From: a virus
Lineage: Duplodnaviria; Caudoviricetes
DNA length: 64,000 nucleotides
Virus record (IMG/VR): IMGVR_UViG_3300044627_003892
Direction: 5' to 3' (one strand)
Within the stretch, counting starts at the first letter, position 1. The number at the start of each line of letters is the position of its first letter. The notes beneath the pieces were generated by a model, which made no database searches, was not told the origin of the DNA, and was given only the letters and a program-made list of their open reading frames with translations. This document shows, piece by piece, positions 3,731 to 41,333 of the stretch. The translations under genes and the position numbers were made by a program.

Positions 3731-3735
3731 AAAAT

Positions 3736-4551: not shown

Positions 4552-4552
4552 A

Positions 4553-6850: not shown

Positions 6851-7116
6851 TGTTACCAATTTTAAACGAAAATTATTATATTGATTTAGAGGAGATTAAT
6901 TCTTTAATCAATATTGAACCAACTGAACCAATATCAGGAGAAACCGGACAACATATTAGTGTTGTTCAGTATGAACTTATTAAAATAATGATAGAAGTCA
7001 TTATGAGTGAACAAGAAGAAGTTGATGAAAAATTGGGTAATAAATCTCAATTATCAATCCCATTTAAATTAGCATTTAATACACTATTAAATAATAAAAC
7101 TATAAAAAAATACTAA
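6850..7116 (+). CDS. Hypothetical protein
   Basis: 88-aa ORF, TAATG-coupled within the operon. Confidence 0.75.
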   Translation: MLPILNENYYIDLEEINSLINIEPTEPISGETGQHISVVQYELIKIMIEVIMSEQEEVDEKLGNKSQLSIPFKLAFNTLLNNKTIKKY

Positions 7117-7119
7117 AAT

Positions 7120-8178
7120 ATGGAAGATAGAATTTTAAAAATTAAAGAATCAATCTTAAATTTAAAAGACAAAAAAAATAAAATATATTTTTTTGTACAA
7201 GACACTAAAGGTAATGCTAAAGCATCTATAAGATACATTTATCAAATAGCAAATACGTTACTTAAAGAAGGATATAACCCAATAATTTTACATGAAAAAC
7301 CTGATTATTTTGGTGTTTCAAGTTGGCTCGGTGAACAATACTCTAAAATCCCACATCAATCAGTGGAAGGTCAAAATTTACAAATAGCACCTGAAGATTT
7401 TATTATTGTACCTGAAATTTTTGGTTATGTTATGGCTCAATTGACTAACATTAAATGTACTAAAATTGTGTTGTCTCAATCATATGACCAAATTTTTGAA
7501 ACTTTACAACCAGGACAAATATGGTCTCAATTTGGTTTCACAAAATGTATTACAACTTCAGAAATACAAAAAAAATATATCTCTCAATTTATGAGAAATG
7601 TCCCAACTGATATTATTGAACCTGTAATATCTGACGTTTTTGAAAAATCAAAATACCCGGCAAAACCAATTATTGCAATCTCTTCAAGAGAACAAAGAGA
7701 TTCAATTAATTTAATTAAATCATTTTATCAAAAATATCCTCAATTTAGATGGATAACTTTTAGAGATATGAGAGGTATTTCTGAAGAAGAATTTGCAAAT
7801 ACATTAAAAGAGTGTATGTTATCAGTATGGGACGATAGAACAAGTGCGTTTGGTACATTCCCATTAGAGTCAATGAAATGTGGTGTCCCTGTAATTGGTG
7901 TAGTTCCTAAAATGGTACCTGAATGGATGAATGAAGATAACGGAATTTGGATTCAAGACGAATTAAATTTAGCCAATTTTATTGGTGAATATATCCAAAA
8001 TTGGTTAGAAGATAACATTTCGGAAGACATCTATAATGGAATGGAAAAATCTTCATTACAATACAGTGATATAAATGACTTTGAGAATAAAATTATATCG
8101 TTATTTAACGAATATACTAAATCAAAACTAAATGTTTTTGAGACAGAATATAATAAATTACAACCTATAGAACAATAA
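7120..8178 (+). CDS. GT-B (GT4-like) glycosyltransferase
   Basis: C-terminal FGTFPLESMKCGVPVIG matches the FGxxxxEAMxxGxPVI signature. Confidence 0.7.
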   Translation: MEDRILKIKESILNLKDKKNKIYFFVQDTKGNAKASIRYIYQIANTLLKEGYNPIILHEKPDYFGVSSWLGEQYSKIPHQSVEGQNLQIAPEDFIIVPEIFGYVMAQLTNIKCTKIVLSQSYDQIFETLQPGQIWSQFGFTKCITTSEIQKKYISQFMRNVPTDIIEPVISDVFEKSKYPAKPIIAISSREQRDSINLIKSFYQKYPQFRWITFRDMRGISEEEFANTLKECMLSVWDDRTSAFGTFPLESMKCGVPVIGVVPKMVPEWMNEDNGIWIQDELNLANFIGEYIQNWLEDNISEDIYNGMEKSSLQYSDINDFENKIISLFNEYTKSKLNVFETEYNKLQPIEQ

Positions 8179-8182
8179 AATT

Positions 8183-8989
8183 ATGGAAAATATTTTAGAC
8201 TTAAGTATCATCTTACCAATTAAGACAAATTTAGTTAAGGACTTTGTGGAACTTTTTACTAAATCAATTGAATCAATCCAATTACAATCAATTAAACCTA
8301 AAGAACTGATAATTGTTCATTCAAGTGAAGAAAAATTAATTGAGTTTTTAGAATCTTTTGATTTTGGGGATTTAAATGTTAAAAAAATTAAATTTGAAAG
8401 TGAACCTAACTTTTCATCTCAGGTTAATTTAGGTATTGAAAGTTCATCATCTAAATGGGTAAGTATTTTAGAATTTGATGATGAATATGCTAAAATTTGG
8501 TTTAAAAACGTTAAAAAATATATTGAAGTTTATCCTGAAATAGATGCGTTTTTACCAATTGTTGTTGATGTTGATAATAAAACAGTATTTGCAGGATTTA
8601 CTAATGAAGCAACATTCGCCGCAAATTTCAGTCAAGAAATGGGTTATTTAACTAACGAAACGTTATTAAATTATCAAAATTTTCAAACATCGGGTATGGT
8701 ATTTAAAAAATCAATTATTGAGGATTTTGGTGGTTTTAAGGCTAGTTTTAAATTAACATTCCCATATGAATTTTTATTAAGAATGACTTATAATTCTGTA
8801 AAAATTATGACTATACCAAAAATTGGTTACAAACATATGAACCTTAGAGAAGGGTCAATATTTTGGGAATATAAAAATGGTGAAAATAAAGTGAGTGACA
8901 GTGAAGTTCAGTTTTGGGTATCTTCTGCAAAAAAAGAATATTTCTTTAATACCGATAGAAACATAAAATATACTCAAGAAAATGCTTGA
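8183..8989 (+). CDS. GT2 family glycosyltransferase
   Basis: LSIILP N-terminus, ELIIV, NLGIESSSSKWVSILEFDD (GT-A DxD region), YEFLLRM. Confidence 0.75.
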   Translation: MENILDLSIILPIKTNLVKDFVELFTKSIESIQLQSIKPKELIIVHSSEEKLIEFLESFDFGDLNVKKIKFESEPNFSSQVNLGIESSSSKWVSILEFDDEYAKIWFKNVKKYIEVYPEIDAFLPIVVDVDNKTVFAGFTNEATFAANFSQEMGYLTNETLLNYQNFQTSGMVFKKSIIEDFGGFKASFKLTFPYEFLLRMTYNSVKIMTIPKIGYKHMNLREGSIFWEYKNGENKVSDSEVQFWVSSAKKEYFFNTDRNIKYTQENA

Positions 8990-9726
8990 TGACTATAAGT
9001 TCAAGCACAATACAGATTGAGGTTACTAAAAAAAAGAAACCAAGTTCTGAAAATTATTTTGACATAAGAGAAGAAAATGCGGTTAGAATGTTTTTAACCG
9101 CATCTACTTTTGATGAAAAAAACAAAATATATAACGATTATTTGAGACATCCTTTAGATAAAATGATATCCTCAATTATTCGAAGATATAAATTGTATAG
9201 AAAAGATATGGATTTTATTGAAATTCATACTGATACACATTCTTTTTTGATGACAAAAATTGATAAGTTTAGTCCGTCAAAAGAAAAGAAAGCGTATTCT
9301 TATTTTGGTACCATTTGTAAAAATTATCTGATGGGACAAATTCTGAAAGACCAAAAAGAAATGAATCGAAAAGTGTCTTATGAAGATATATCTAGTGATT
9401 TAGAAAATAGGTCAGAAATGGTTTATTACTTAGATATTGAACCAGAGGTTGAGGTAAATATTATACCAATTTTAAAATCATATATTAAAGACGTTTTAGA
9501 AGAAAATGATTTAAATGATAATGAAATAAAATTGGGTATTGCTTTAATTGAGGTACTTGACAATTATGAAACAATATTTCCAGCAACTGATAACAATAAG
9601 TTCAATAAAAATGTAATTCTTTTATCTTTAAGAGAAATGACTAATCTTTCAACTAAAGAAATAAGAGCTTCCATGAAAAAATATAAAAAAATATATTTAG
9701 GTCTTATAGAAATCAAACCAGATTAA
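8986..9726 (+). CDS. gp55: gp55-like late RNA polymerase sigma factor
   Basis: IDKFSPSKEKKAYSYFGTICKNYL resembles sigma region 2 of T4-type late sigmas (KFDP..K.AFSY...I..N); sits upstream of morphogenesis genes. Confidence 0.6.
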   Translation: MMTISSSTIQIEVTKKKKPSSENYFDIREENAVRMFLTASTFDEKNKIYNDYLRHPLDKMISSIIRRYKLYRKDMDFIEIHTDTHSFLMTKIDKFSPSKEKKAYSYFGTICKNYLMGQILKDQKEMNRKVSYEDISSDLENRSEMVYYLDIEPEVEVNIIPILKSYIKDVLEENDLNDNEIKLGIALIEVLDNYETIFPATDNNKFNKNVILLSLREMTNLSTKEIRASMKKYKKIYLGLIEIKPD

Positions 9727-17763: not shown

Positions 17764-18018
17764 ATGGAACATTCTAATGAAGATATATTAAAAGAAGAAA
17801 TTATTGAAAAATTCAAAAATTTAAATCCTATTGGAAGTTTATTTGATGCTATTAATTATACTTCTTATGAAGATTTAGACAAATTCATAGTTAATATGTC
17901 TCAAGAACAATCTCTTTATTGTTTAATGGAGGCAGTTAAATGCTCATACAGAAGAGGTGTATTTACTCTTGAGGAAAGTGAAGCTATATCTAAATCACTT
18001 AGGATTTTATCTAAATAA
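17764..18018 (+). CDS. Hypothetical protein
   Basis: 84-aa ORF ending at a terminator. Confidence 0.7.
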   Translation: MEHSNEDILKEEIIEKFKNLNPIGSLFDAINYTSYEDLDKFIVNMSQEQSLYCLMEAVKCSYRRGVFTLEESEAISKSLRILSK

Positions 18019-18047
18019 AAAAAGGTCAGATTTCTCTGACCTTTTTT
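18017..18047. terminator. Bidirectional intrinsic terminator
   Basis: AAAAAAAGGTCAGA-tttc-TCTGACCTTTTTT between convergent genes. Confidence 0.85.
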
Positions 18048-18066
18048 ATTATCGATTAAGATAAGA

Positions 18067-19959
18067 TTATCTTAACTCATTCAAATCGAATGTACGAACA
18101 CCATCAACGATGATACGTCCATAGAAACGGTTATTAACCATCTTCTTAGCGTAACGTGTCATAATACCCTTGATAGGAGTAAAGTTGAATGGGTTATACA
18201 TTGTTGGAGTTAATTGTAACGGTACGTATGGAGCGTAGATGTAACCAGTATCCAATAAAGAAGTACCTTTATGACCAATCAACACAGTGTTAGCTGGGAA
18301 GTATGGGTCACGGTATACTTGGTAACGACCACTTAATGTACCAACTCTCTCAATACCCATGTTGAATTGGTCCTGCTCAGGAGCCGCATTTGATACGTGG
18401 AAGTATTCCAAGTCATCAAAGATAGCACTGATTTCAGAAGATACAACAATCCAGTTAGCTCCACCTCTTAAAGTAGACTTATGGATTTGAGCTGAAATTT
18501 GGTTGATTGCAGTAATCAACGTTTGATTCCAGTCCTTTTGAGTGTAAGGAGTTGATTGGTTGTTCAGACGCTTCCATCCGTTGTAATCCCAACGTAATGT
18601 CCAAGCCGCACCTTTACGTAAGTCACGTAAAATTTCACGGTCAATTTCAGCCGCCACTTGCTCAGATAATAAAGCTGTTAATTCAGCTTCAGCATCGATG
18701 TTGTGGAATGCCGCAACGTCTTGTGCCATTTCTGGAGACCATTGTGCTCTTAATTTTCTTTCTGTTACAGAAACAGTTACTGACTCAAGGTCAAAAGAAA
18801 CTTCACCAATCTTATCTTCAAATTCTAACTCTTCGTAACGTCTCCAAGCAGCTTGGATGTTAGTATATGCATTACCAGTACCAGCAGTAGCTCCTGACCA
18901 ATATTGGTTAGTCAATGAAGAACCTGAATATCCATCAGGAGTTGATTGTCCACATGCGATACATGCTGGAACTTGTAAATCAACTTCTAAATAGATAAAT
19001 CCTTTTTGGTCACATACGTTATCATAATAACCACCATTACCACCTGTAGTTTGAGCTCCAGGGAATGCAGCTTGTGTTGAAGTGTATTGAGGACCATACA
19101 TAGCCTGACCATACTTCTGAGTTACAACACGATATAAAAGTGGAGTATATGTTGCAACACCCAAGTCGGTAGCAACGTTTGTGTTATTAGTATAAAGAAC
19201 CAAATTAGATAAGAAAGATTCAGTATCTTGCTCTTGTCCGTCAGGTCCGATTAATTTACCTATACCACTAGCACTTAAACCTGAAAGTGCAACAATAACT
19301 TTACGATATTCAGTTTTTGAAGCCGCAACTTGTCCAAGAAGAGTATAACCTGAAGCAATTAACGCACCATTAGACCAAGCAACTGTCGGTGTGTTTGCAG
19401 TATAAGTTACAAAACGTCCTTTAGAATAATCGAATAAACCTGCTGGGTCAAGACCTGGCTCAGTTCCTTCGTAGAATAAATCATAAAGATTTTTTGTATA
19501 TGCTCCTGAAGATGTACCATAACCTGCGTTAGGGTCACCAGGATAGTTTCCAGGAGAACCTACAGGTGCGTAGTGGTCACCTGAAGTAACGTTTACACCA
19601 TTGATTGAAGAACCTCCAGAATAACCTTGGATTTGAGGTACAAAGTAGAACAATTTACCGATTGGTAAGTTCATAGCTTGTACAGAAACGATTTCGTTAG
19701 ACAATAATTTAGAGAACACACGTCTGATGATAGGGAATACCACAGTCTCGAATGAACCTGAATCTGCCGTAGAAGATGCTTCGTTAATTAAATGTGACGC
19801 TTGGTTTTCATACAATTGTGCAACATTTTCTTTTAGGTGGCCTTTAAGACCTTCAAGGAACCCTAATTTGTCCCATTTGTTTATAGTGTCTTCTTTGATA
19901 ACTTTCAAGTGCTTAAGACCGATGTTACCTACTAATCCACTTTCTAATAATGCTCCCAT
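18067..19959 (-). CDS. gp23: Major capsid protein (T4 gp23-like)
   Basis: IIRRVFSKLLSNEIVSVQAMNLPIGKLFY, TERKLRAQWSPEMAQD, AELTALLSEQVAAEIDREIL, YIYAPYVPLQ, IMTRYA. Confidence 0.95.
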   Translation of the reverse strand: MGALLESGLVGNIGLKHLKVIKEDTINKWDKLGFLEGLKGHLKENVAQLYENQASHLINEASSTADSGSFETVVFPIIRRVFSKLLSNEIVSVQAMNLPIGKLFYFVPQIQGYSGGSSINGVNVTSGDHYAPVGSPGNYPGDPNAGYGTSSGAYTKNLYDLFYEGTEPGLDPAGLFDYSKGRFVTYTANTPTVAWSNGALIASGYTLLGQVAASKTEYRKVIVALSGLSASGIGKLIGPDGQEQDTESFLSNLVLYTNNTNVATDLGVATYTPLLYRVVTQKYGQAMYGPQYTSTQAAFPGAQTTGGNGGYYDNVCDQKGFIYLEVDLQVPACIACGQSTPDGYSGSSLTNQYWSGATAGTGNAYTNIQAAWRRYEELEFEDKIGEVSFDLESVTVSVTERKLRAQWSPEMAQDVAAFHNIDAEAELTALLSEQVAAEIDREILRDLRKGAAWTLRWDYNGWKRLNNQSTPYTQKDWNQTLITAINQISAQIHKSTLRGGANWIVVSSEISAIFDDLEYFHVSNAAPEQDQFNMGIERVGTLSGRYQVYRDPYFPANTVLIGHKGTSLLDTGYIYAPYVPLQLTPTMYNPFNFTPIKGIMTRYAKKMVNNRFYGRIIVDGVRTFDLNELR

Positions 19960-19988
19960 TTATTTTATAGGTTTTTTATTTTTTAAGT

Positions 19989-21419
19989 TTATTTTATTAT
20001 TTTTGACATAATGTCTTTCATTCTCAAGAATTGAGGATTCTCATAAGTCTTAGATTCAATCAGATTAACTGCTGAACCTGACTGTGGAGCTTTATCAATT
20101 ACTCTTTCGATTGACTCAGTCATGAACTTTTTGGTTTCCCCTCCAAGTTCGTCTTTTATTGTTTTATACAAAGCTTTAGACTCTTTAAGAGTTTCAGCAG
20201 AATCAAATCTTCTTAAAACGTTAATTTTTTCCTGCTTTGATGTAGAATGTTCTGTGAACAATCTTGTAGCATATGCTAAATTTGAATTAAATACGGCAAC
20301 TTCGTTAAGTTTATCTCTAAACATATTTAGAGCCTTTCTGTATTCTTCATTTTTAGCCTTTAACATTTCAACTTCTTCCATGATTTCACGGTTTTCAAAA
20401 GTTAGATTTCTGTTAGGTGTAACACCTTTTCTTAAACCACGTCCTTCTTTAGAACCGAATCCATAAGTACGAGATGCTTCTTTAGCTTCTTCCTTAGTGA
20501 ATTTTTTTACACCCTTTGGACTTGGCATGTCAAACATTTCACCTTCTTTGAATTCAAACTTTGGTTTAGATGTTCCTTTAGTAGGGTTAGCGTGTGATTT
20601 CTTTTCGTTAAAACCACCTTTAGATTTTTCATAATTAAATTTGGCTTTACCTACAGAACCTTTTGTACCAACTTTTGGTTTAATAACAGATTTAGATTCG
20701 TACATTACGTCTTCTTCAAACGTGTATTCCTCTTCTTCTTCACCTTCTTCCATGGTTTCAAAATCTTTGTAATGACCATCAACGTCTCCGATTTTATGAC
20801 CATCTCGTCTTTTATAATCGTGTTCGTCTCCGCCATACATTTCATCTAATTCTTCTTCAGCTTCATCATCCATTTCAATTTCGTAAACGATTTCTTCTGA
20901 TTCTTCTTCATTATCTTCTTCCATTCCAAACTCCTCTTCTTCAGATTCTGTTTGAATAAGGTATTCATCTTCTTCATCTTTTAAATGAATGAAATCACCT
21001 TCTTTTTTAATTTCAAAAGAATCATCTGGACTCATTTGTTTGTAAGCCTTTAAGACATCTTCTAATGAATGGTTAGATAAATCCATGATTTCATCAGATT
21101 CGAAATCATCTCCACCACTGATATCAGAAAAATTTGACATGTCGAAACTTTCTTCAGAATCTTCGTCTTCAGACTCGTCTTCTTCAGACTCGTCATCAAA
21201 TTCAAATTCGTCTTCCTCAGAATCATCTTCAGATTCTAATTCGTCTTCAACTTCAAATTCATCTTCTTCTTCAGCCTCATTTTTCATAGACTCTTTTACT
21301 AATTCGCTAATTTCTTCTTTCATTGTAGAATGAAGTATTTCTTTTGCATTTTCATTGATTGCTTCTTCCAAATTTTGTATTTGGATTAATGCTTCTTCAA
21401 CTAAGTTTTTTTCTGCCAT
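19989..21419 (-). CDS. gp22: Prohead core scaffolding protein (gp22-like)
   Basis: Very acidic with a coiled-coil C-terminus; lies between prohead protease and MCP; many L/I-x-E sites. Confidence 0.7.
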   Translation of the reverse strand: MAEKNLVEEALIQIQNLEEAINENAKEILHSTMKEEISELVKESMKNEAEEEDEFEVEDELESEDDSEEDEFEFDDESEEDESEDEDSEESFDMSNFSDISGGDDFESDEIMDLSNHSLEDVLKAYKQMSPDDSFEIKKEGDFIHLKDEEDEYLIQTESEEEEFGMEEDNEEESEEIVYEIEMDDEAEEELDEMYGGDEHDYKRRDGHKIGDVDGHYKDFETMEEGEEEEEYTFEEDVMYESKSVIKPKVGTKGSVGKAKFNYEKSKGGFNEKKSHANPTKGTSKPKFEFKEGEMFDMPSPKGVKKFTKEEAKEASRTYGFGSKEGRGLRKGVTPNRNLTFENREIMEEVEMLKAKNEEYRKALNMFRDKLNEVAVFNSNLAYATRLFTEHSTSKQEKINVLRRFDSAETLKESKALYKTIKDELGGETKKFMTESIERVIDKAPQSGSAVNLIESKTYENPQFLRMKDIMSKIIK

Positions 21420-21486
21420 TGCGTAGTTATTTTATTAAATAAATATGCAGATGTTTAGAAAAATTAATTTTTTTTGGTTTTTAAAT

Positions 21487-21514
21487 AAAAAAAGGGGACT
21501 TTTGTCCCCCTTTT
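21487..21514. terminator. Intrinsic terminator
   Basis: GGGGAC-tttt-GTCCCC flanked by A/T runs. Confidence 0.75.
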
Positions 21515-21536
21515 AAATTCTTTTTAAACTTTGTGA

Positions 21537-21752
21537 TTACTCAAACACTTCGTCAATTTTACTTTCACTTACTGAAGTAATTCTCCAATCATAACTAAAT
21601 GATTTGTAAGCCTCAGTAACTTTAGCTTCTACATCAGTAACAGAATAACCTTTTACAAGTTTTTCTTCTCTTACCTTTTTAATTTTTCCTGTGTTTTCAT
21701 CTGGCAAATCGTATTGGATTTTAGCCACAAAGTATTTTTCGTCCATTTCCAT
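21537..21752 (-). CDS. Hypothetical protein
   Basis: 71-aa ORF downstream of the prohead protease. Confidence 0.75.
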   Translation of the reverse strand: MEMDEKYFVAKIQYDLPDENTGKIKKVREEKLVKGYSVTDVEAKVTEAYKSFSYDWRITSVSESKIDEVFE

Positions 21753-21758
21753 AATTGT

Positions 21759-22478
21759 TTATTTTCCTAAATAATCGGAAAGTCTTCCCATTAAATCAAG
21801 CGATTTGTTAACTGTTCTTGATGCTTTCATCTCATTTTCTTCTTGTAGGTTCTCCTCAAACGCAAATCTTCCATCAGGTTCAGTAAATAAATAAGCTCCT
21901 GGTGTTGATGGTGAAGATACCAAGTCAAAACAAATTAATTCAAAATCATCTTGAACTTCATTTTGGTCACCTACCTTCTTTAAGGAACCTACCCCTCTTG
22001 ACGATATACCTAACGTTACACCTAATCTTAATAGATTTGCCGCTTGGTCACCCTTTGTTGATACGATACCTCTTTCATGGAACCCTGGTGAAGTTAGAAG
22101 TAATAACTTACCTAATAGAACATTACCATCCCACCACATCTCTGTAATCATGTGTGATACTCTATCTAAATCTATCAATGAAGACTCAGGGTGGTTAAGT
22201 TCTGATAAAGCGGTTTTCTTACCGATATAATTTTTTATATAATTTTCAGATTCTCTCTTTAAAATTCTTTCAGGATATATTCTACCGTTTCTATTGGGTG
22301 TATTATATTTTTGTAGAACGGCATAGAACTCAAATGGTTTTGAATAATCTTTAAAATCCCTACTTTCTTGTAAGAATGTTTGATTATGTTTTTCTGTCGG
22401 GGAAACATATCCCGCATCCATCTCAATTAAAATACCTTTTCCTGTCTCTTTTGGACCTAATATTTTGTAATTTTGCAT
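21759..22478 (-). CDS. gp21: Prohead core protease (gp21-like)
   Basis: NRNGRIYP, ELNHP (catalytic His), LGISSRGVGS (catalytic Ser), FDLVSSPSTPGA. Confidence 0.93.
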   Translation of the reverse strand: MQNYKILGPKETGKGILIEMDAGYVSPTEKHNQTFLQESRDFKDYSKPFEFYAVLQKYNTPNRNGRIYPERILKRESENYIKNYIGKKTALSELNHPESSLIDLDRVSHMITEMWWDGNVLLGKLLLLTSPGFHERGIVSTKGDQAANLLRLGVTLGISSRGVGSLKKVGDQNEVQDDFELICFDLVSSPSTPGAYLFTEPDGRFAFEENLQEENEMKASRTVNKSLDLMGRLSDYLGK

Positions 22479-22500
22479 TTTACCTTTTTATAGATAAATA

Positions 22501-22965
22501 TTAAATACTTTCTATTTTATCGGTTGTTTTTATTTTGTTCGATTTTGTAAGATAAAATTTGAAATATTTTGATTTTTTAAAAGATTCTTTTTCTACATAA
22601 TTTATGATATTTTTAATAGAATTTTTTAGTTCTACAGATTTAAAATCAATATCTTTTTTCAAAAAGAATGTTACTTCTAAATTCATAAAAGACCTTTTCT
22701 TAATTGTTATTCCACTTGTCCTTAAATCTAAATCAACTATAAATTTTTCATTTAGTAAGTCATTGTCGATAATTTCTATTAAGTTTGTTTTAATATTTTT
22801 ATTAAATACTGATACAATTCTATTCCAACTTTCTTCGTGTGTCTTTGGTTCAACCCAAGATTGGATATTTAAATAAATTGATTTTAAATTTTTTGAGTCA
22901 ACCGTACCATAAGAACATTTTATTTGTTTATATCCTCTAACCACACAACTTTTTCCTTTTTTCAT
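22501..22965 (-). CDS. Hypothetical protein
   Basis: 154-aa ORF divergent from bS21. Confidence 0.75.
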   Translation of the reverse strand: MKKGKSCVVRGYKQIKCSYGTVDSKNLKSIYLNIQSWVEPKTHEESWNRIVSVFNKNIKTNLIEIIDNDLLNEKFIVDLDLRTSGITIKKRSFMNLEVTFFLKKDIDFKSVELKNSIKNIINYVEKESFKKSKYFKFYLTKSNKIKTTDKIESI

Positions 22966-22989
22966 TTACAAGTTTTTCATATCTTCGTT

Positions 22990-22997
22990 TATTTATG
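22990..22997 (+). promoter_or_regulatory. Putative late promoter TATTTATG upstream of bS21
   Basis: Same sense-strand motif as at structural genes, 36 nt before ATG 23034. Confidence 0.5.
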
Positions 22998-23033
22998 TAA
23001 GTAATATTAATCAACAAAAACCGAGTTGTCAAA

Positions 23034-23219
23034 ATGCTAATAATTCCCGTAAAAAATAACGATTTAGAAAAATCTTTAAAAAACTTTAAATCAAAAGTTT
23101 TAAAAACCAAAATGATTGTAGAGTTACAAAACAGAAAAAACTACAAAAAAAAATCTGACATAAAACGTCAGATTTTAAATGATGCTATTTATAAAAATTC
23201 AAAAAATAAAGATTTATAA
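23034..23219 (+). CDS. rpsU: Ribosomal protein bS21 (phage-encoded)
   Basis: MLIIPVKNNDLEKSLKNFKSKV..ELQNRKNYKKKSDIKR matches Bacteroidetes bS21 (MLIIPVK...ALKRFKRK...ELR.R..F.KPS..RR). Confidence 0.85.
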   Translation: MLIIPVKNNDLEKSLKNFKSKVLKTKMIVELQNRKNYKKKSDIKRQILNDAIYKNSKNKDL

Positions 23220-23924
23220 ATTTTGTGTTAAATTCATTAATTTAATATATTCTTTTTTAGAATGTTTTACATTTGTAAGTCTTTCTTTTGTTTCTAATAA
23301 AACTTTTGATAGTTCTTCATCAGACTCTGAAATAAGAGTGTCAATTTTTTGAATTGCAGTTTCTTTTAATTCTGTAAATTTTGTTTTTAAATTTTCATCA
23401 TTTGATGATAAAATTTCTTTAACAGAATTTCTTTCAGATTCAGTTAGGTTTTCTAAATATTTTTCAGCCGTTTTATTAGCAACTTTTAACATTGAACTAA
23501 TTGGTACGTTTGTAGATTTAGTTTCTTTTATTATTGGTTTTTTACCTAAAGACTCAACGATTGATTTTTTAGCAATTGATTTCTTTTCAGGTTTTAGTAA
23601 ATCACCATAAAATAATTCATCAATTGTTTTGTATTTGTTTTCAAGTACAATATCCTTAGTCCAACTTTTAACAAAATTTACTGTATTTTCAGATAATTTA
23701 ATTTGTCTAAATTCATTAGATAAATCATCAACCAAATAAGTTGCGGTTTCTTTATCTAATTCTTTATTTTCTTTTAAATTATCATATATCGACATTAATT
23801 TACAAAAATCACTATTTTTAAGTAATTTTCTTTCAAAAAGTCGCATATCAGTTTTAAGAGTTCCTTTAACAAAGGAATCAATTAATTTATTTTCTACTAA
23901 TGTTTTTATTAATCCAAATCTCAT
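23214..23924 (-). CDS. Hypothetical protein in head module
   Basis: 236-aa ORF after portal; late motif at 23940-23947. Confidence 0.8.
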   Translation of the reverse strand: MRFGLIKTLVENKLIDSFVKGTLKTDMRLFERKLLKNSDFCKLMSIYDNLKENKELDKETATYLVDDLSNEFRQIKLSENTVNFVKSWTKDIVLENKYKTIDELFYGDLLKPEKKSIAKKSIVESLGKKPIIKETKSTNVPISSMLKVANKTAEKYLENLTESERNSVKEILSSNDENLKTKFTELKETAIQKIDTLISESDEELSKVLLETKERLTNVKHSKKEYIKLMNLTQNL

Positions 23925-23947
23925 GTCTATATTTTTTTATATAAATA

Positions 23948-25804
23948 TCAATTCTTTAGTAGTTTATCTAATTCGGTACCCATTTCACCTAAAGAATTTT
24001 GAACTTTTGACAAATCAATCAATTCATCCTCATTTAACATACCTCTATTTTCTAATAAAATATTTAAATTTTCTTTATTTCTCTCATCGTTTTCAGGTAC
24101 AGTCCCTCCTTCTGCAGGTGGTGCTGGTGATGGTGATTCAGGTGGTGCCGGTGACTCTCCTCCCATATCACCCATTCCTCCTAAATCAGGTGGTGCTCCT
24201 AATCCTCCTCCTGTGTCAGTTGCCCCACCTTCAGTAGGTGTTCCAGCCGGTTCACCTTCTTTTTTACCATACAACTTGTCTATGTTATCAAATATACCTG
24301 TGTGAGTAATAACTTCAGCAGTTTTCTTAAGTTCTTCACCAACGGCTCTTTCGATACGTTGTTGTTGTAAATCAAGTTTAATTTCATCATCAGAAAATCC
24401 AAGAATATGTTTCTTAGCCCATGACATAGAAACTGCCGCAATACCACTTCCTGGGTCGGCAACCATATCTTTAAATAATAGTATTTTTTCTTTCCATACA
24501 TCAATCTTTAGTAAATCCGCTTGTGTTGAAGGATTTGTTAAACTTAATGTAAAGTTTGATATTTCATCCTCAAACCCTAATATGAATAAATGTATTATCG
24601 CAATTTTATTTAATTCAGAAATCATATTCTTTTGAATACGATTGATGGTACGAGCGAAACGAATATCTTGTAATGATAAATTCTTACCATCACCAACAGT
24701 TTCTTCAAAACCTAAAAATGCTTTAGGAACACGAAGAGCTGTTAACAATTTCTTTTGGATATACTCAATATCGGCAATCTCTGATAAGTTCGCAGCTCCC
24801 GGTAATGTCTCAATCGGCATTGTTTGTGTAGTATCTCTAACAGGAACGAAATAATCTTGGTCAACCGCCATCTGATTAAATCTCATATCCACATTACCTG
24901 TCTTATGGTCAACCGTTTGACTTCTCTTAAACTTATTAGCAAATCTTTGGATATATGGTTCAACATCCGCATCATCCATGTTACCAACAAATACTTTAAA
25001 TACACGTCTTTCAGGTGCTCTTGATGTTCTGTAAATTAACATAGCATCTTCAGATAACAATAATTGTTTCCAAATACGACGAGCCTTTTCTAACATAGAA
25101 GTTCCATAAGGAAGTCTTCTATCATCACCAAGTAATCTAAAGTGTGCAACTTCCCAAGTATTAAACTCTAAATCCTTTTGTTTCCATTTGAATTTTAAAT
25201 GTTTCTTTTCAGGATTTGTTGTCGAATCTGTTGAGTGAGCACCCATACCTGCTTCCAATCTTTCAATCTCGATGACTGGTAATTGCATACATCCTATAAT
25301 ACCTTTTTCAGGGTCTAATTTAAGATATACAAAATTATCACCATACTTACATGTGTTTCTTATCCACATAGGTAAGTTAGTATTAATATCTAACGCATTG
25401 TTAAATAAATCACCTAAAATAGATTTAATTCTTGTTGACTCAGAATAGATTTGTAACATAAAACCATCCTGATTAATTGTTGTTGACTCTTCAGCATAAA
25501 TGTCTAAAGCCGCACCAATTTCAGGTGTAAATTCCATTGACTCGTAGTCATAAAAAGACGCTAAACGAGTTGGTTCATAGTAAACTGCCTGTGTATATAG
25601 ATTATTCTCAACCCTACCCCATTGGTTTGCTAAGTAATATGTTTGTTGAGCTTGTAATTTCTCTCTATCATATTCAGATTTAGAAGTTGTCTTTAAAAGT
25701 TCCTTCTTATCATATTTGTACGTAGGATAATCCTGACCCAAAAGAGAATTGGGTCCAAATGTTTGGGATAACCGTTGCCATACCGTTAGTTTATTTTCAC
25801 TCAT
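23948..25804 (-). CDS. gp20: Portal vertex protein (gp20-like)
   Basis: EDAMLIYRTSRAPERRVFKVFVG, QDYFVP, IETLPG, DIEYIQKKLLTALRVPK, DIRFARTINRIQ. Confidence 0.93.
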   Translation of the reverse strand: MSENKLTVWQRLSQTFGPNSLLGQDYPTYKYDKKELLKTTSKSEYDREKLQAQQTYYLANQWGRVENNLYTQAVYYEPTRLASFYDYESMEFTPEIGAALDIYAEESTTINQDGFMLQIYSESTRIKSILGDLFNNALDINTNLPMWIRNTCKYGDNFVYLKLDPEKGIIGCMQLPVIEIERLEAGMGAHSTDSTTNPEKKHLKFKWKQKDLEFNTWEVAHFRLLGDDRRLPYGTSMLEKARRIWKQLLLSEDAMLIYRTSRAPERRVFKVFVGNMDDADVEPYIQRFANKFKRSQTVDHKTGNVDMRFNQMAVDQDYFVPVRDTTQTMPIETLPGAANLSEIADIEYIQKKLLTALRVPKAFLGFEETVGDGKNLSLQDIRFARTINRIQKNMISELNKIAIIHLFILGFEDEISNFTLSLTNPSTQADLLKIDVWKEKILLFKDMVADPGSGIAAVSMSWAKKHILGFSDDEIKLDLQQQRIERAVGEELKKTAEVITHTGIFDNIDKLYGKKEGEPAGTPTEGGATDTGGGLGAPPDLGGMGDMGGESPAPPESPSPAPPAEGGTVPENDERNKENLNILLENRGMLNEDELIDLSKVQNSLGEMGTELDKLLKN

Positions 25805-25842
25805 ATTTTAATTATAAATATTCTTATAGATTATTAAACAAT

Positions 25843-27306
25843 TTATCCAATATTATATGGACATGAACCTAAATTAGTAACACTTAGATTACTTCCAGTA
25901 GGTTCTGAACACAAACACATATATACTACATAGTTTTTAGGTAATGTAAACGATGTCGGAGCATCAACAAATGGAGGTGACATACTAACTGTTGCAGTAG
26001 CTCCTGTTGCTTCAAGTCGATATTGATTAGTAACACAAGTTCCACTATTTCTAGTACAAGCAGATGCACTAGTCGAAACCACACCTTCTACAACTTGATA
26101 AAAATATGGTGGTATTGTATTTCTCGTATTATTTCTTAAGTTAAAGTTTACATCTAAAAATGCAGTTCCTCCACTAAATAATCCTTGACTACTTGGTGGG
26201 TTATTTGTAAAAGTAATTGCTGAGTATGAATTACAATACCCTGTATTAAAAGGTACTGTATTACCAAAAAATCCATAAAATGTCTCATTATTACAAGTAC
26301 CACCAGTACATGGACCATAATTAGCTTTAATTATTGATATATCTTCATTAACAATTCGTGCACATACTTGGATTGATTCTCCAGCATTTATATTACCAAT
26401 AAATACTGTCCCCGAACAATCGTTATAATTATAATTTAAGGCACCTGCAGTAGGGTTTGTTAAATACCAACAACGACATTCTGGTATTGTCGGTGTCGGT
26501 GTAGTAGTTTGGGTAGGAGTGATTGTTGAAGTTATTGAAGGTGTTGGAGTTTGAGTATTAGTAGTGGTTTGAGTATTAGTAGGGGTTTGAGTTTGAGTTT
26601 GAGTTACTGAAGGTGTTGGTGTTGGTGTTTGGGTTTGCGTATTAGTCAGAGTTATTGAAGGTGTTGGTGTTGGGGTAGGTGTCGGACAAACTCCTGCATT
26701 ACAAAAAGGTGTATCTATACCTATTGAAATACCAGGTGCACTAATTGAATTTTGTTTAGCACAGAACCTTGTTGTTGTATTAGGTAACATTGACCCTGTA
26801 ATTGTACCTCCCGAACATGAAATACCACTATATGATAGTGGAGGAGCGAGAGGAGCTCCTGTAATATAACTTAAATCATAACAAACACAAGATATTTCAG
26901 TTGGTGTTACAGTTTGAGTATTGGTTGGTGTTATAGTATTAGTTGGTGTTTGTGTCGGAGTTTGAGTGTTTGTAGTCGTTACGGTTTGAGTTATTGATGG
27001 TGTCGGTGTTTGAGTTTGAGTGTTTGTAGGTGTTTGAGTTTGGGTTAAAGATGGCGTCGGTGTTTGAGTTTGGGTTAAAGATGGCGTCGGTGTTTGAGTT
27101 TGAGTTAAAGAAGGTGTTGGAGTATTGGTCGGGGTTACAGAAGGTGTTGGAGTTAAAGGAGGTCCAGGTTCACCCTTTGTTTGTTTTATTAAAAAAACAA
27201 ACTTTTTTAATTTACCGGTTAATGAACCGAAATTTTCTTGGCCCTCAACAATTAATTTTGAGCCGGTAAATATTCTACCTGATTTTTTTCTATCTCCTGT
27301 TCCCAT
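25843..27306 (-). CDS. Mucin-like Thr/Pro-rich protein with Cys-rich modules (putative virion appendage)
   Basis: TPTPSxTQTQ repeat blocks alternate with Cys-rich modules; located between terL and portal. Confidence 0.6.
   Translation of the reverse strand: MGTGDRKKSGRIFTGSKLIVEGQENFGSLTGKLKKFVFLIKQTKGEPGPPLTPTPSVTPTNTPTPSLTQTQTPTPSLTQTQTPTPSLTQTQTPTNTQTQTPTPSITQTVTTTNTQTPTQTPTNTITPTNTQTVTPTEISCVCYDLSYITGAPLAPPLSYSGISCSGGTITGSMLPNTTTRFCAKQNSISAPGISIGIDTPFCNAGVCPTPTPTPTPSITLTNTQTQTPTPTPSVTQTQTQTPTNTQTTTNTQTPTPSITSTITPTQTTTPTPTIPECRCWYLTNPTAGALNYNYNDCSGTVFIGNINAGESIQVCARIVNEDISIIKANYGPCTGGTCNNETFYGFFGNTVPFNTGYCNSYSAITFTNNPPSSQGLFSGGTAFLDVNFNLRNNTRNTIPPYFYQVVEGVVSTSASACTRNSGTCVTNQYRLEATGATATVSMSPPFVDAPTSFTLPKNYVVYMCLCSEPTGSNLSVTNLGSCPYNIG
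27031..27120. repeat. 30-nt coding tandem repeat x3 (PTPSLTQTQT)
   Basis: tgtttgagtttgggttaaagatggcgtcgg exact twice, third copy degenerate. Confidence 0.9.
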
Positions 27307-27312
27307 ATAATG

Positions 27313-29058
27313 TTATCTTCGTCCCCCGAATAACCATAAATAGTTTTCGTAGTCACTTTTTGTTGCCTCTCGTTTAATGTTTTCTTGTTGTTGTGAAATT
27401 ACCGGGTCCATGAATTGTCTTCTGTTAAATTCATTTGTATTAACAGTCCATGAGTCAATCATCGCTTTTGTTTGATTTGTAACCTTATTAAGTGATGAAA
27501 ATGATGTTTCACCAACATAAAGAGCCATGGCAACAGACATAATCAAGTCATCATGTTGTCCCTTTTGGTGGTCAGGTCTTCCATTCACATAAATAAATGT
27601 GTTCATCTCATTTAATAAACGAGTTGAGTTTATTCTAAACCCATGTCTTAAATATTCCTCAAATGTTGCAATAATTTGAACTCGTTTAGCATTAAAGTTA
27701 ATTCCTGGTATTTTTTCAGTCGCCTTTGGGTCATATTGCCACTTATTTGAAATATCAACTCCATCAACATATACATTTCTATATCCTAACTCTCTCAATC
27801 TTAAAGATGTCGTAACTCCCATACCACCAGTGATATCCACAACAATAAATGCATTATACATATTACCCCATTTATAACATATTTCAGCTAAAGTGTCAGG
27901 AGGAAGTTTACCAACGTACTCAGCAACCTGTTCTCTTGAGTCAAAATCAACAATTTGGAATGTTGAAAAGTCTTCACTATCACCACGAGATACGTCAACA
28001 CCCATAATATATTTTTTACCTATTTCAGGTTCTTTCCAAATCCATAGTCCACCACCCATCATTTTTGTAGGAGGTTCCTTAACCATATTTATCCTTAAAT
28101 CTTCCAACATATCAGAATTAAATACGTTATCCCCCGAACCAAGAAACGCACATTCCAACTCCTGATTGACCTTACGTTTATCGTACTTAAGTTTTTTAAC
28201 CATTGACTCATACCAAGATGAGTTTGGTTTATAACCCTGTGAAATTAGTTGTCTTATCTCATCAAAGTTTTTTTCTTTATTGTTATATTCAATAATTTCA
28301 ACATCAGGATATTCATTACGATTTAAGTAATAATGAATAATATCTTTAACATTAACTAATGATAAATCTTTTGCATATCTTGGGTCTTTCCACCAAACCA
28401 TTTCGGAAACTTTAAATTCATTCATTCCCTTTAACGCTTGGTCGTATATTTCATAATAAATTGCATCATATCCGTTTGGTGTTGATACAACTATCACCTT
28501 ACCACCTGTGGATAAAGATGCCATACAAGCCGCCCAAAAATCACTATCTGCTTCAATATATGCAGCCTCGTCAAATATTAATATTGTCGGTGTATAACCA
28601 CGAAGAGCATCCTTAGATGTTGCAACCGCCTTAACTTCACATCCGTTAGTTAATTTAAAATGTCTTTGTGAGTTTTTTTCAGATGAAAATCCAACACCAA
28701 CCCAACTAGGCCATTGGTCAGTAAATCCTCTAATCTTATTTGCAACCTCAACCGCAGTATCTAACTTATTTGCAATAATTAAAACTTTTTCAGGACTATT
28801 CTTTTTAGCAAAAACAAGTTTTTTTGATGACCAAGCAGCTGTTACCGTAGATACTCCGGCTTGTCTATACTTTAGTGCAATATTTTCATTATAATTCTCG
28901 TAATCCTCAACCAGACTAATTTGGTCAGGAAATAACTCTAATGGGACATACTTTGAAACAGTGTTGTCATACGTCTGTAAATAAGTTTTAAGGGCGTATG
29001 GTGTTGATTTCATACACTTGGCATACTCCATTAAAACGGCTTCTTTAGATAAACTCAT
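27313..29058 (-). CDS. terL: Terminase large subunit
   Basis: KYRQAGVST (Walker A variant), LIFDEAA (Walker B), VVSTPNG, QELECAF, MGVDVSRG, HDDLIMS. Confidence 0.93.
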   Translation of the reverse strand: MSLSKEAVLMEYAKCMKSTPYALKTYLQTYDNTVSKYVPLELFPDQISLVEDYENYNENIALKYRQAGVSTVTAAWSSKKLVFAKKNSPEKVLIIANKLDTAVEVANKIRGFTDQWPSWVGVGFSSEKNSQRHFKLTNGCEVKAVATSKDALRGYTPTILIFDEAAYIEADSDFWAACMASLSTGGKVIVVSTPNGYDAIYYEIYDQALKGMNEFKVSEMVWWKDPRYAKDLSLVNVKDIIHYYLNRNEYPDVEIIEYNNKEKNFDEIRQLISQGYKPNSSWYESMVKKLKYDKRKVNQELECAFLGSGDNVFNSDMLEDLRINMVKEPPTKMMGGGLWIWKEPEIGKKYIMGVDVSRGDSEDFSTFQIVDFDSREQVAEYVGKLPPDTLAEICYKWGNMYNAFIVVDITGGMGVTTSLRLRELGYRNVYVDGVDISNKWQYDPKATEKIPGINFNAKRVQIIATFEEYLRHGFRINSTRLLNEMNTFIYVNGRPDHQKGQHDDLIMSVAMALYVGETSFSSLNKVTNQTKAMIDSWTVNTNEFNRRQFMDPVISQQQENIKREATKSDYENYLWLFGGRR

Positions 29059-29090
29059 ATACTATAAATATAAAATTTATCATAAAATAG

Positions 29091-29116
29091 AAAACCCTTC
29101 ATCTCTGAAGGGTTTT
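29091..29116 (-). terminator. Intrinsic terminator
   Basis: AAAACCCTTCA-tctc-TGAAGGGTTTT. Confidence 0.75.
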
Positions 29117-38378: not shown

Positions 38379-38761
38379 GGGGGTGTTTCTGGATTTGACA
38401 GGAATGAATTTATTATAAAACGCACGTCGGGGCTAAACTAACCCTGTAAAACTGGTTTAAAACACAAACGGCAACACAATTGCAAAACTTTCTACACTCG
38501 GTTTAATCCGTACTGAAGAAGTAACTGTAGCCTAATCTAAGATTAGTATACAACGGGGTCGGTGAGCATATAACCTTGCAACAGAAGCTTGTACCGTGGT
38601 GTGGTTTCTATCCGAAAAGGAACAAAAACCTTGTTTGTCTGTTACGGAAGGTTAATCTAAACAGAATATTTTGGAATGTTAAGAACTAACATTATCCTAA
38701 ACGTGTAGTGTTTTATCGTAAACATTTTTGGACCTGGGTTCGAAACCCAGCACCTCCACCA
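38379..38761 (+). ncRNA. ssrA: tmRNA
   Basis: 5' GGGGGTG...GGATTTGAC; 3' CTGGG-TTCGAAA-CCCAG-CACCTCC-ACCA; G3-U70 alanine determinant; tag ORF 38470-38535 GNTIAKLSTLGLIRTEEVTVA-TAA. Confidence 0.92.
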
Positions 38762-39775: not shown

Positions 39776-39789
39776 ATATTTATAAATAT
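39776..39789. promoter_or_regulatory. Palindromic bidirectional late promoter ATATTTATAAATAT
   Basis: Perfect palindrome between divergent ATGs 39762(-) and 39791(+). Confidence 0.6.
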
Positions 39790-41259: not shown

Positions 41260-41333
41260 TACCCCCGAAGGGATTCGAACCCCTGGCCCACAGATTAGAA
41301 ATCTGTTGCTCTATCCTACTGAGCTACGAAGGC
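41260..41333 (-). tRNA. tRNA-Arg(UCU)
   Basis: GCCTTCG TA GCTC AGTAGGATA GAGC A ACAGA TT-TCT-AA TCTGT GGGCC AGGGG TTCGAAT CCCTT CGGGGGT A; CCA not encoded; TATATTTG promoter at 41346-41353. Confidence 0.92.

What the first reader, a model, noticed from the sequence alone, without database searches (positions are those of the whole stretch)
22990..23219. Ribosomal protein bS21 inserted antisense within the head-assembly module, with a late promoter motif
Seen: a 61-aa bS21 on the + strand between minus-strand portal-side and protease-side genes, TATTTATG upstream, and KKS where hosts usually have KPS. Established: large freshwater Bacteroidetes phages with bS21 beside TerL/portal/MCP are already described, so its presence is not novel. 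Inference: the late motif would explain late expression, and the diverged C-terminal half may alter anti-SD sequestration.
Basis: partly seen in the sequence, partly recalled or inferred. Interest (0 to 1): 0.6.

Follow-up and report, generated by a model that had tools for sequence, protein, structure and literature searches.

The report
Phage bS21 gene in head module
A giant lake phage of Bacteroidota carries its own copy of ribosomal protein bS21, placed backwards among its head genes exactly as already published. The new details are a phage-type promoter motif, no host-style feedback signal, and a terminator for the opposing gene hidden inside its coding sequence.

Summary
Window 23034-23219 (+) encodes a 61-aa bS21 (Pfam 40.1 bits, cut-off 27). 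It lies antisense between a 236-aa and a 154-aa gene inside the minus-strand TerL/portal/protease/MCP block.

Chen et al. 2022 (PMC9723584) already published this arrangement for freshwater Bacteroidota jumbo myophages, so the core finding is known.

- **Motif:** TATTTAT is a real, orientation-specific motif. It sits before 29 of 79 gene starts, against 4.2 ± 1.9 in shuffles, including TerL, portal, protease and the scaffold-MCP unit. First readers of this scan also noted it in other windows of the same genome. The bS21 copy is conserved in relatives, but it is the most atypical copy and overlaps a conserved upstream element of the 154-aa gene.
- **KKS:** It is real, but Lys also occurs in 13 of 88 cellular Bacteroidota bS21.
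- **C-terminal half:** The anti-SD-stacking Tyr (Y53) and the tail charge are retained, so altered sequestration is not supported. Divergence is concentrated in the N-terminal helix.

Three details were absent from the papers read:
- The phage gene lacks the strong SD that autoregulates host rpsU.
- Codons 38-48 hold a conserved minus-strand intrinsic terminator.
- A divergent sigma-like gene lies at 8989-9726.

There is no RNA evidence of my own.

The parts
23034..23219 (+). bS21 gene, 61 aa
   Evidence: Pfam PF01165 40.1 bits against a cut-off of 27; phrog_21469; best solved relatives are 9i5v_9 and 7jil_z, bS21 of F. johnsoniae
22990..22996 (+). TATTTAT motif, candidate phage-class promoter element for bS21, 37 nt before the ATG
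   Evidence: Exact core invariant in relatives with bS21 58-100% identical, at 35-39 nt spacing. Motif class enriched before 29 of 79 starts.
22966..23033 (.). 68-nt divergent intergenic region shared by bS21 and the 154-aa gene
23004..23032 (-). Sigma-70-like TTGACA-N17-TAATAT, candidate promoter of the 154-aa gene
   Evidence: Found. The same hexamers at 17-nt spacing, with varying spacers, occur in relatives with and without bS21, as read from the sequences printed.
22986..22997 (-). CATAAATAAACG, containing the conserved AATAAAC element 18-21 nt before the 154-aa gene's ATG; its reverse complement supplies the TATTTAT core
   Evidence: AATAAAC is also present in relatives lacking bS21, where it does not form TATTTAT
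23136..23176 (-). Intrinsic-terminator-like hairpin (12-bp stem, 23150-23176) plus U-tract, inside bS21 codons 38-48 and 38 nt downstream of the 236-aa gene's stop
23214..23924 (-). 236-aa hypothetical gene, convergent with bS21 (6-nt overlap); TATTTAT at 23941-23947
   Evidence: no family match
22501..22965 (-). 154-aa hypothetical gene, divergent from bS21
   Evidence: no family match
23948..25804 (-). T4-like portal; TATTTAT at 25814-25820
   Evidence: PF07230 251.5 bits; motif
21759..22478 (-). Prohead protease; TATTTAT at 22494-22500
   Evidence: PF03420 94.2 bits; motif
18067..21419 (-). 476-aa gene plus gp23-like major capsid protein, one likely unit: TATTTAT at 21439-21445, preceded by a terminator at 21489-21514
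27313..29058 (-). Large terminase; TATTTAT at 29064-29070, preceded by a terminator at 29091-29116
8989..9726 (+). 245-aa divergent sigma-factor-like protein, candidate reader of TATTTAT promoters
   Evidence: phrog_234 'late sigma transcription factor' E 1.2e-3; AF2 model with mean pLDDT 67.9; nearly all of the top 50 Foldseek PDB hits are sigma factors, best E 0.015 and prob 0.96

Best explanation
This is an intact phage-borne bS21 of the freshwater Bacteroidota jumbo-myophage lineage already described. Shown: it passes the bS21 model and keeps the residues that are invariant in cellular Bacteroidota bS21, including the anti-SD-stacking Tyr. It differs mainly in the N-terminal helix. It sits antisense between two small genes of the head module in most relatives, and it has no Shine-Dalgarno sequence. 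Inferred mechanism: a phage-class promoter (TATTTAT, shared with head, packaging and lysis genes, possibly read by the sigma-like protein at 8989-9726) transcribes bS21 together with the late genes. The SD-less mRNA is translated by ordinary, bS21-replete ribosomes, so it escapes the host's rpsU feedback. The protein exchanges into the 30S platform and keeps the anti-SD sequestered, which would also keep the SD-dependent host rpsU off. Its altered N-terminal helix, which lies where mRNA binds, biases initiation toward phage messages. The gene also serves the opposite strand: a hairpin plus U-tract in codons 38-48 terminates the convergent portal/236-aa transcript before it reaches the bS21 promoter region. 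My component odds: genuine bS21 used on host ribosomes 0.85; TATTTAT as bS21's phage-class promoter 0.6; embedded minus-strand terminator 0.65; escape from and suppression of host autoregulation 0.5.
For: - **Identity:** Pfam 40.1 bits against a cut-off of 27. The best solved relatives are Bacteroidota bS21, with Y53 aligned to Tyr54. K39, S41, R45, A51, I52 and Y53 match near-invariant cellular residues, and the tail charge is +2, equal to the cellular median.
- **Context:** identical synteny in L001-L008. bS21 is present and antisense in 57 of 66 protease-anchored related loci. The published description of the same arrangement includes in situ co-expression with structural genes.
- **Host:** all best cellular matches are Bacteroidota at 36-52% identity. 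Only 4 of 79 window genes have an SD core.
- **No SD:** pairing energy of the upstream region with the anti-SD is -4.9 kcal/mol here and -2.7 to -3.1 in the 77-82% clade. Cellular rpsU has a median of -16.1, and 53 of 95 are at or below -13. The autoregulation model is from McNutt et al. 2023.
- **Motif:** 29 genes against 4.15 ± 1.85 in dinucleotide shuffles (maximum 11 in 1000). In tandem gene contexts it is sense 18 times and antisense 2 times. Terminator, motif and ATG follow in that order before TerL and the scaffold-MCP unit. The bS21 copy is invariant in relatives.
- **Promoter position:** a clade with about 52% identical bS21 has a perfect host-type TTTG-N19-TATTTTTG at the same place, which marks the spot as bS21's promoter.
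- **Terminator, shape:** 12-bp stem plus U-run, 96-nt fold -19.2 kcal/mol, z -4.5.
- **Terminator, conservation:** the stem codons are invariant at nucleotide level in 17 distinct relatives while the loop codons change the protein. The stem uses rare codons GAC, CGT and CAG, whereas the same gene uses GAT, AGA and CAA elsewhere. 92.2% of cells are paired against 35-52% when partners are slid, with AU to GC compensation at one pair. The G-U pairs work only in the minus-strand RNA.
- **Terminator, strand:** the CGC variant keeps -12.2 kcal/mol on the minus strand but drops to -5.9 on the plus strand.
- **Terminator, relatives:** relatives without bS21 carry a canonical terminator in the same gap. 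Another clade (L227) has a different hairpin plus U-run over bS21's stop codon.
Against: - I have no RNA ends, timing or ribosome data; the one read-laying run failed.
- The bS21 motif copy is the outlier of 29: spacing 37 nt, T before and G after the core, each seen in only 2 of 29 copies.
- Its core is the reverse complement of the 154-aa gene's conserved AATAAAC element, so its conservation may come from the other strand.
- One bS21-bearing clade lacks TATTTAT.
- Hairpin covariation is thin: 2 pairs with double changes, and related sequences inflate such counts.
- 7% of cellular rpsU genes fold as well over the same codons.
- The L190-type clade shows no terminator in bS21 by my simple scan.
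- The sigma-like assignment rests on weak scores and no sequence match in the PDB.
- Selectivity for phage mRNAs is untested anywhere.
Confidence: 0.6

Rival explanations
1. The TATTTATG upstream of bS21 is not a phage-class late promoter. It is the shadow of the 154-aa gene's conserved upstream element on the other strand. bS21 is then transcribed from a weak host-type sigma-A box (TATTTATG is one mismatch from TAnnTTTG), possibly early or constitutively.
For: AATAAAC lies 18-21 nt before the 154-aa gene's ATG in relatives that lack bS21. The bS21 copy has atypical spacing and flanks. The L190-type clade has a perfect TTTG-N19-TATTTTTG host promoter at the same spot.
Against: In bS21-less relatives the element never extends to TATTTAT; in the hairpin-bearing bS21 clade it does in every sequence examined. 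The window lacks a -33 TTTG at the right distance (TTTA-N21). More distant members read TATTTATA, two mismatches from the host box but the phage consensus. Published metatranscriptomes show bS21 expressed with structural genes.
Confidence: 0.3
2. The conserved hairpin in codons 38-48 acts in the plus-strand bS21 mRNA, for stability or feedback binding of bS21, rather than as a terminator of the opposite strand.
For: The plus-strand RNA also folds in the window sequence (-11.0 kcal/mol, z -6.4). Ribosomal protein genes are often feedback-regulated through mRNA structures (general knowledge).
Against: The U-tract exists only on the minus strand. In 18 of 31 sequences pair 21:27 is G-U, in 5 pair 19:29 is G-U, and in 7 pair 22:26 is U-G in the minus RNA; these are A-C or C-A mismatches in the plus RNA. 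The CGC variant halves plus-strand stability but not minus-strand stability. The position, 38 nt after a co-oriented stop codon, fits a terminator, and bS21-less relatives have a terminator in the equivalent gap.
Confidence: 0.2
3. The phage bS21 confers no mRNA selectivity. It simply keeps ribosomes complete when host protein synthesis or rpsU expression collapses, or it is packaged in virions and acts at the start of the next infection (the alternative offered by Chen et al.).
For: The ribosome-binding and anti-SD-contact residues are host-like. bS21 is essential in F. johnsoniae. Virion packaging is proposed.
Against: Nine near-invariant cellular positions in the N-terminal third are replaced, and the paper reports phage-specific N-terminal divergence across its clades, which a pure spare part would not need. 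This evidence is indirect only.
Confidence: 0.3

Closest known systems
bS21-encoding freshwater Bacteroidota jumbo myophages, clades a-e (Chen et al. 2022, PMC9723584)
   Same: bS21 on the reverse strand between two hypothetical genes inside the TerL/portal/protease/MCP block. Low GC. Near-identical proteins occur on contigs of about 290-307 kb. The Tyr54 equivalent is kept and the N-terminal helix is divergent. Transcription units inferred here match their RNA-based ones.
   Different: None in kind. Details not in that paper as read: the TATTTAT motif, the absence of an SD, the terminator inside the coding sequence, and relatives that keep both flanking genes but lack bS21. They report that their bS21_CN neighbour is absent from two outgroups.
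Host bS21/rpsU of Flavobacterium johnsoniae and other Bacteroidota (Jha et al. 2021, PMC7797042; McNutt et al. 2023, PMC9976891)
   Same: Same fold family. Tyr that stacks on A1534, weakly basic tail, invariant K39, S41 and R45.
   Different: 36-52% identity only. No extended SD (-4.9 against a cellular median of -16.1 kcal/mol), so it lies outside the autoregulatory loop. N-terminal substitutions at S20, V22, L23, K26, V29 and Q32.
Pelagibacter phage HTVC008M bS21 (Mizuno et al. 2019, as cited in PMC9976891)
   Same: A bS21 carried by a T4-like myophage. That protein was shown to enter E. coli ribosomes.
   Different: Different host phylum. No tblastn match at E <= 0.01 in the phage collection apart from four huge-phage records. 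No Bacteroidota-type Tyr logic is known for it.
T4 late promoter TATAAATA read by gp55 (PMC1524935 among the hits; general knowledge)
   Same: A single short AT-rich element close to late genes in a phage with T4-like head genes. A weak gp55-family hit exists in the window.
   Different: The sense-strand motif is TATTTAT(A), the reverse complement of the T4 element. It often lies only 4-9 nt from the ATG. The candidate sigma is 245 aa and resembles multi-domain sigma factors.
Francisella tularensis bS21 paralogs (PMC9578407, PMC12262407; abstracts only)
   Same: Alternative bS21 proteins that change which mRNAs ribosomes translate, a precedent for bS21-based specialised ribosomes.
   Different: Those are cellular paralogs, not a viral gene, in a different phylum with SD-using ribosomes.

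Membership tests
Ribosomal protein bS21 (Pfam PF01165) | Score above the curated gathering threshold over the full model | tested here: met
   40.1 bits against 27; residues 4-55 on profile positions 2-54 of 55
Ribosomal protein bS21 (Pfam PF01165) | Residues invariant in cellular homologs | tested here: met
   M1, K7, K19, K21, R34, K39 and A51 match residues present in all 88 cellular Bacteroidota sequences; T25, S41 and R45 match 87 of 88
Ribosomal protein bS21 (Pfam PF01165) | Incorporation into the 30S subunit | not testable with these tools
   Needs mass spectrometry or cryo-EM of ribosomes from infected cells
Bacteroidota-type bS21 (anti-SD sequestering) | Signature Tyr54 (F. johnsoniae numbering) and a weakly basic C-terminal tail | tested here: met
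   Y53 aligns with Tyr54. Tyr occurs in 84 of 88 cellular sequences at that column. Tail net charge is +2, equal to the cellular median.
Bacteroidota rpsU autoregulated through an extended SD | SD pairing energy below about -13 kcal/mol upstream of the start | tested here: not met
   -4.9 kcal/mol in the window and -2.7 to -3.1 in the 77-82% clade; 53 of 95 cellular rpsU are at or below -13. The anti-SD tail used was typed from general knowledge.
bS21 jumbo phages of Chen et al. 2022 | bS21 on the reverse strand between two hypothetical genes, within five genes of TerL, portal, protease and MCP | tested here: met
bS21 jumbo phages of Chen et al. 2022 | Genome 293-331 kb, GC 31-33.7%, Bacteroidota host | tested here: inconclusive
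   Window GC is about 0.24-0.38 per 2-kb bin, near 0.30 overall. Proteins 94-100% identical lie on contigs of 283-307 kb. Host evidence is indirect. The whole genome was not available.
T4-type late transcription (gp55, TATAAATA) | TATAAATA on the non-template strand at -10 | tested here: not met
   The sense-strand motif is TATTTAT(A/T). In tandem gene contexts it is sense 18 times and antisense 2 times.
T4-type late transcription (gp55, TATAAATA) | A gp55 homolog | tested here: inconclusive
   phrog_234 E 1.2e-3, 20 bits; no Pfam hit; no PDB sequence hit; fold hits go to sigma factors in general
Intrinsic (Rho-independent) terminator | Stem-loop with G-C pairs followed at once by a U-tract, downstream of a co-oriented stop codon | tested here: met
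   12-bp stem with 3 G-C pairs, 3-nt loop and a 9-U run, 38 nt after the 236-aa gene's stop
Intrinsic (Rho-independent) terminator | RNA 3' ends at the U-tract | not testable with these tools

The most novel reading that the evidence does not exclude
The phage bS21 gene serves both strands. On its own strand it is an SD-less copy, driven by a phage promoter, that bypasses the host's bS21 feedback loop and, by filling ribosomes, shuts that loop down. On the opposite strand, codons 38-48 are the intrinsic terminator of the convergent portal/236-aa late transcript. That second role constrains the protein's sequence (rare codons, Asp42 where cells have Val) and makes the two mRNAs overlap at their 3' ends.
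Probability: 0.4. Interest if true: 0.5.

Novelty: already known. Interest (0 to 1): 0.3.

Why it matters
bS21 controls whether Bacteroidota ribosomes can use Shine-Dalgarno pairing, and phage copies are the commonest ribosomal protein in viruses. The gene and its placement are already published, so this window adds no new kind of system.

It does sharpen the published hypothesis into three testable points:
- A defined promoter motif links bS21 to the head, packaging and lysis genes.
- The phage copy has lost the SD that lets the host sense bS21 shortage. This predicts one-way replacement of host bS21.
- The coding sequence carries a terminator for the opposing transcript. This may explain why the published RNA profiles of bS21 and its opposite-strand neighbour look coupled.

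Tried and rejected
- **RNA evidence.** The look-up of sequencing runs listed only runs holding 5-8% of the sampled words, all kept as contigs. I draw no habitat or expression claim from these.
- **Megablast of 18000-29100 against the phage collection:** no match.
- **Whole-genome search:** no genome is held for this window.
- **Alignment A1** was too diverse for a genome-contig scan, so a narrower one was used.
- **'The terminator's U-tract explains Lys40 instead of Pro':** rejected. Every phage clade examined, including those without the hairpin, has Lys there (VKKS, TKKS, QKKS), and so do 13 of 88 cellular proteins.
- **TATTTATG as an 8-mer motif:** rejected. It occurs 9 times with about 12 expected, and only 2 copies lie near a start. 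The informative unit is TATTTAT.
- **Reverse-complement reading.** I considered that the motif serves the 154-aa gene as a T4-type CATAAATA. The sense orientation is fixed by tandem contexts (18 against 2), and that gene has its own conserved TTGACA-N17 element.
- **Literature search for TATTTAT as a phage promoter:** nothing relevant.
- **PDB sequence search for the sigma-like protein:** no hit.
- **Class-level host assignment from bS21:** not resolvable.
- **Unpublished genomes.** included G183 and G097. Only the tally '276 of 301 genomes have a match' includes them; none of the loci used in my statistics come from them.

Full report
**1. Observation**

The ORF at 23034-23219 (+) encodes 61 residues. 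It matches Pfam Ribosomal_S21 at 40.1 bits (cut-off 27) over almost the whole model, and PHROG 'ribosomal protein S21'.

All neighbours are on the minus strand:
- MCP 18067-19959
- a 476-aa gene, 19989-21419
- a DUF4494 fragment, 21537-21752
- prohead protease 21759-22478
- a 154-aa gene, 22501-22965
- a 236-aa gene, 23214-23924
- T4-like portal 23948-25804
- a 487-aa gene, 25843-27306
- TerL 27313-29058

bS21 diverges from the 154-aa gene across a 68-nt gap. It converges on the 236-aa gene with a 6-nt overlap. TATTTATG starts at 22990.

**2. Already known**

Chen et al. 2022 (PMC9723584) describe 47 freshwater phage genomes of up to 331 kb. In these, bS21 lies on the reverse strand between two hypothetical genes inside this same block. 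They report Bacteroidota hosts, a conserved aromatic residue at Tyr54, N-terminal divergence, and in situ co-expression with structural genes.

Evidence that this window belongs to that lineage:
- bS21 proteins 80-98% identical occur on many metagenomic contigs. One is a 294,749-bp contig holding a protein that NCBI names '30S ribosomal protein S21 [uncultured Caudovirales phage]'.
- Eight such contigs show identical synteny.
- Of 66 protease-anchored related loci with enough flank, 57 carry bS21, always antisense.

Nine of those loci lack bS21 yet keep both flanking genes. Eight of them carry diverged flanking genes. The ninth, L160, is a close relative in which bS21 has an internal deletion. 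'Inserted' is therefore a fair word.

**3. The protein**

The best solved relatives are Bacteroidota bS21 (9i5v and 7JIL). Phage Y53 aligns with Tyr54 and K40 aligns with Pro41.

I compared it with 88 distinct cellular Bacteroidota bS21.
- **Kept:** K39, S41, R45, A51, I52 and Y53, and a tail charge of +2 (cellular median +2).
- **Replaced at near-invariant cellular positions:** N8, N9, L11, N17, S20, V22, L23, K26, V29, Q32, D42, D50, K57 and L61. Nine of these 14 lie in residues 8-32.
- **Pro/Lys column:** Pro in 75 and Lys in 13 cellular proteins. Every phage clade examined has Lys.

KKS is therefore a lineage trait and is also found in cells. The C-terminal features tied to anti-SD sequestration (Jha et al.) are intact.

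**4. No Shine-Dalgarno**

Only 4 of 79 window genes have an SD core. The bS21 leader pairs with the anti-SD at -4.9 kcal/mol here and at -2.7 to -3.1 in the 77-82% clade. Cellular rpsU in my sample has a median of -16.1, and 53 of 95 are at or below -13.

McNutt et al. 2023 showed that host rpsU is translated preferentially by ribosomes lacking bS21, through this strong SD. From that I infer two things. The phage copy is outside the loop. If it fills ribosomes and sequesters the anti-SD, it would hold host rpsU translation down. That paper discusses phage bS21 but, as far as I read, does not report this contrast.

**5. The motif**

TATTTAT is the most enriched 7-mer in the 60 nt before starts (29 of its 63 copies; p about 3e-23).
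- It precedes 29 genes within 45 nt, against 4.15 ± 1.85 (maximum 11) in 1000 dinucleotide shuffles of the same regions.
- In tandem gene contexts it is sense 18 times and antisense 2 times.
- The consensus is A-TATTTAT-A/T, usually 4-19 nt from the ATG.
- It precedes TerL, portal, the 236-aa gene, protease, the 476-aa/MCP unit and an endolysin-like gene.
- It is absent from the glycan-synthesis operon at 83-9726.
- Before TerL and the MCP unit it lies between a terminator and the ATG, which argues for a promoter.

Two possible sigma factors were found:
- **In the window:** a 245-aa protein at 8989-9726 has a weak late-sigma PHROG hit. Its structure model's top PDB matches are almost all sigma factors.
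- **In a related genome:** a canonical sigma-70 family gene.

First readers of this scan noted the same motif in other windows of this genome. Those notes are not independent evidence. A follow-up report that overlaps mine was withheld.

**6. The bS21 copy of the motif**

The string CGTTTATTTAT is invariant in relatives down to 58% bS21 identity, at 35-39 nt from the ATG. It is nevertheless the outlier of the 29 copies in spacing and flanking bases.

Its core is also the reverse complement of AATAAAC. That element lies 18-21 nt before the 154-aa gene's ATG, including in relatives without bS21. In those relatives the element does not extend to TATTTAT.

A clade with about 52% identical bS21 carries a perfect host-type TTTG-N19-TATTTTTG at the same position. 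I read the site as bS21's promoter in both clades, with a one-base difference between host class and phage class. This is inference. I put 0.6 on the phage-class reading.

**7. A terminator inside the gene**

On the minus strand, 23176-23150 forms a 12-bp hairpin followed by nine U, 38 nt after the 236-aa gene's stop.

Conservation:
- The stem corresponds to bS21 codons K39-D42 and R45-L48.
- Across 17 distinct close relatives these codons never vary at nucleotide level, apart from CGT to CGC.
- The loop codons change the protein.
- The stem uses GAC, CGT and CAG (25%, 15% and 12% usage), whereas the same gene uses GAT, AGA and CAA elsewhere.

Covariation and strand:
- Over 31 distinct sequences, 92.2% of cells pair, against 35-52% when partners are slid. 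One pair shows AU, GC and GU.
- G-U pairs at three positions are valid only in the minus-strand RNA.
- The CGC variant keeps -12.2 kcal/mol on the minus strand but falls to -5.9 on the plus strand.

Relatives:
- Those without bS21 have a canonical terminator in the same gap, abutting TTGACA.
- L227 has a different hairpin plus U-run over bS21's stop codon.

Cautions:
- The double changes are few.
- 7% of cellular rpsU genes fold as well over the same codons.
- One bS21 clade shows no such hairpin.

I put 0.65 on a minus-strand terminator.

**8. Transcription-unit model (inferred)**

- Portal plus the 236-aa gene, ending inside bS21.
- bS21 alone on the plus strand.
- The 154-aa gene, from a conserved TTGACA-N17-TAATAT (sequences).
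- Protease plus DUF4494, ending at the terminator at 21489-21514.
- The 476-aa gene plus MCP.

This matches the units that Chen et al. inferred from RNA. It would also explain why bS21 and an opposite-strand neighbour looked co-transcribed in their data.

**9. Verdict**

The finding is real and correctly identified, and its core is already published. The late-motif idea is supported as a motif class and plausible for bS21. The idea about the C-terminal half is not supported. The SD loss and the embedded terminator are modest new details that need RNA-end mapping and ribosome biochemistry.

Noticed in passing
window 38379-38761 (+): A phage-borne tmRNA (Rfam RF00023, 126.1 bits; ARAGORN tag peptide AKLSTLGLIRTEEVTVA, which does not end in the usual ALAA). 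A tRNA-Arg(TCT) lies at 41260-41333 (-).
   Followed up: no
window 59984-61033 (-): One of the very few genes with a strong SD-like leader (AAAAGGGGGAUGA, -13.2 kcal/mol against the anti-SD) in an otherwise SD-less phage. In a host whose ribosomes read SD only when they lack bS21, this gene might be translated by bS21-free ribosomes.
   Followed up: no
L160:4348-4526: A close relative (protease 99%, flanking genes 94-95% identical) has an internal deletion in bS21. By my reading of the printed sequence, the first codons and the last few codons remain, and the middle, including the embedded hairpin, is gone. It may be a natural loss variant or an assembly artefact.
   Followed up: partly
window 23004-23032 (-), and the same place in L182, L185, L189, L215, L219: An E. 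coli-like TTGACA-N17-TAnnnT promoter before the 154-aa gene keeps its hexamers and exact 17-nt spacing while the spacer sequence varies, in phages with and without bS21 (sequences). This is unexpected for a Bacteroidota system. Such sites are not enriched in the region overall (40 found against 51.7 expected).
   Followed up: partly
window 52374-52385, 54115-54126, 39777-39788: Back-to-back palindromic TATTTATAAATA. The first two lie between divergent genes and look like bidirectional versions of the motif.
   Followed up: no
window 23186-23195 (+): A full-consensus TATTTATAAA lies inside bS21 itself (codons I52-Y53-K54), pointing into the antisense of the 236-aa gene with no plus-strand gene for 8 kb. 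It may be a chance product of the Ile-Tyr-Lys codons or an antisense start.
   Followed up: no
window 8989-9726 (+): The sigma-like protein family is very large and highly conserved (at least 7998 proteins at E <= 0.001; the best 120 are all at least 80% identical). It has 30%-identical relatives in cultured Flavobacterium phages vB_FspM_immuto, where it is annotated as hypothetical.
   Followed up: partly
window 83-8989 (+): A tightly packed glycan-synthesis operon (GT11, epimerases, DegT aminotransferase, GDP-mannose dehydratase, GT47-like, GT1, GT2) has no TATTTAT before its genes.
   Followed up: no
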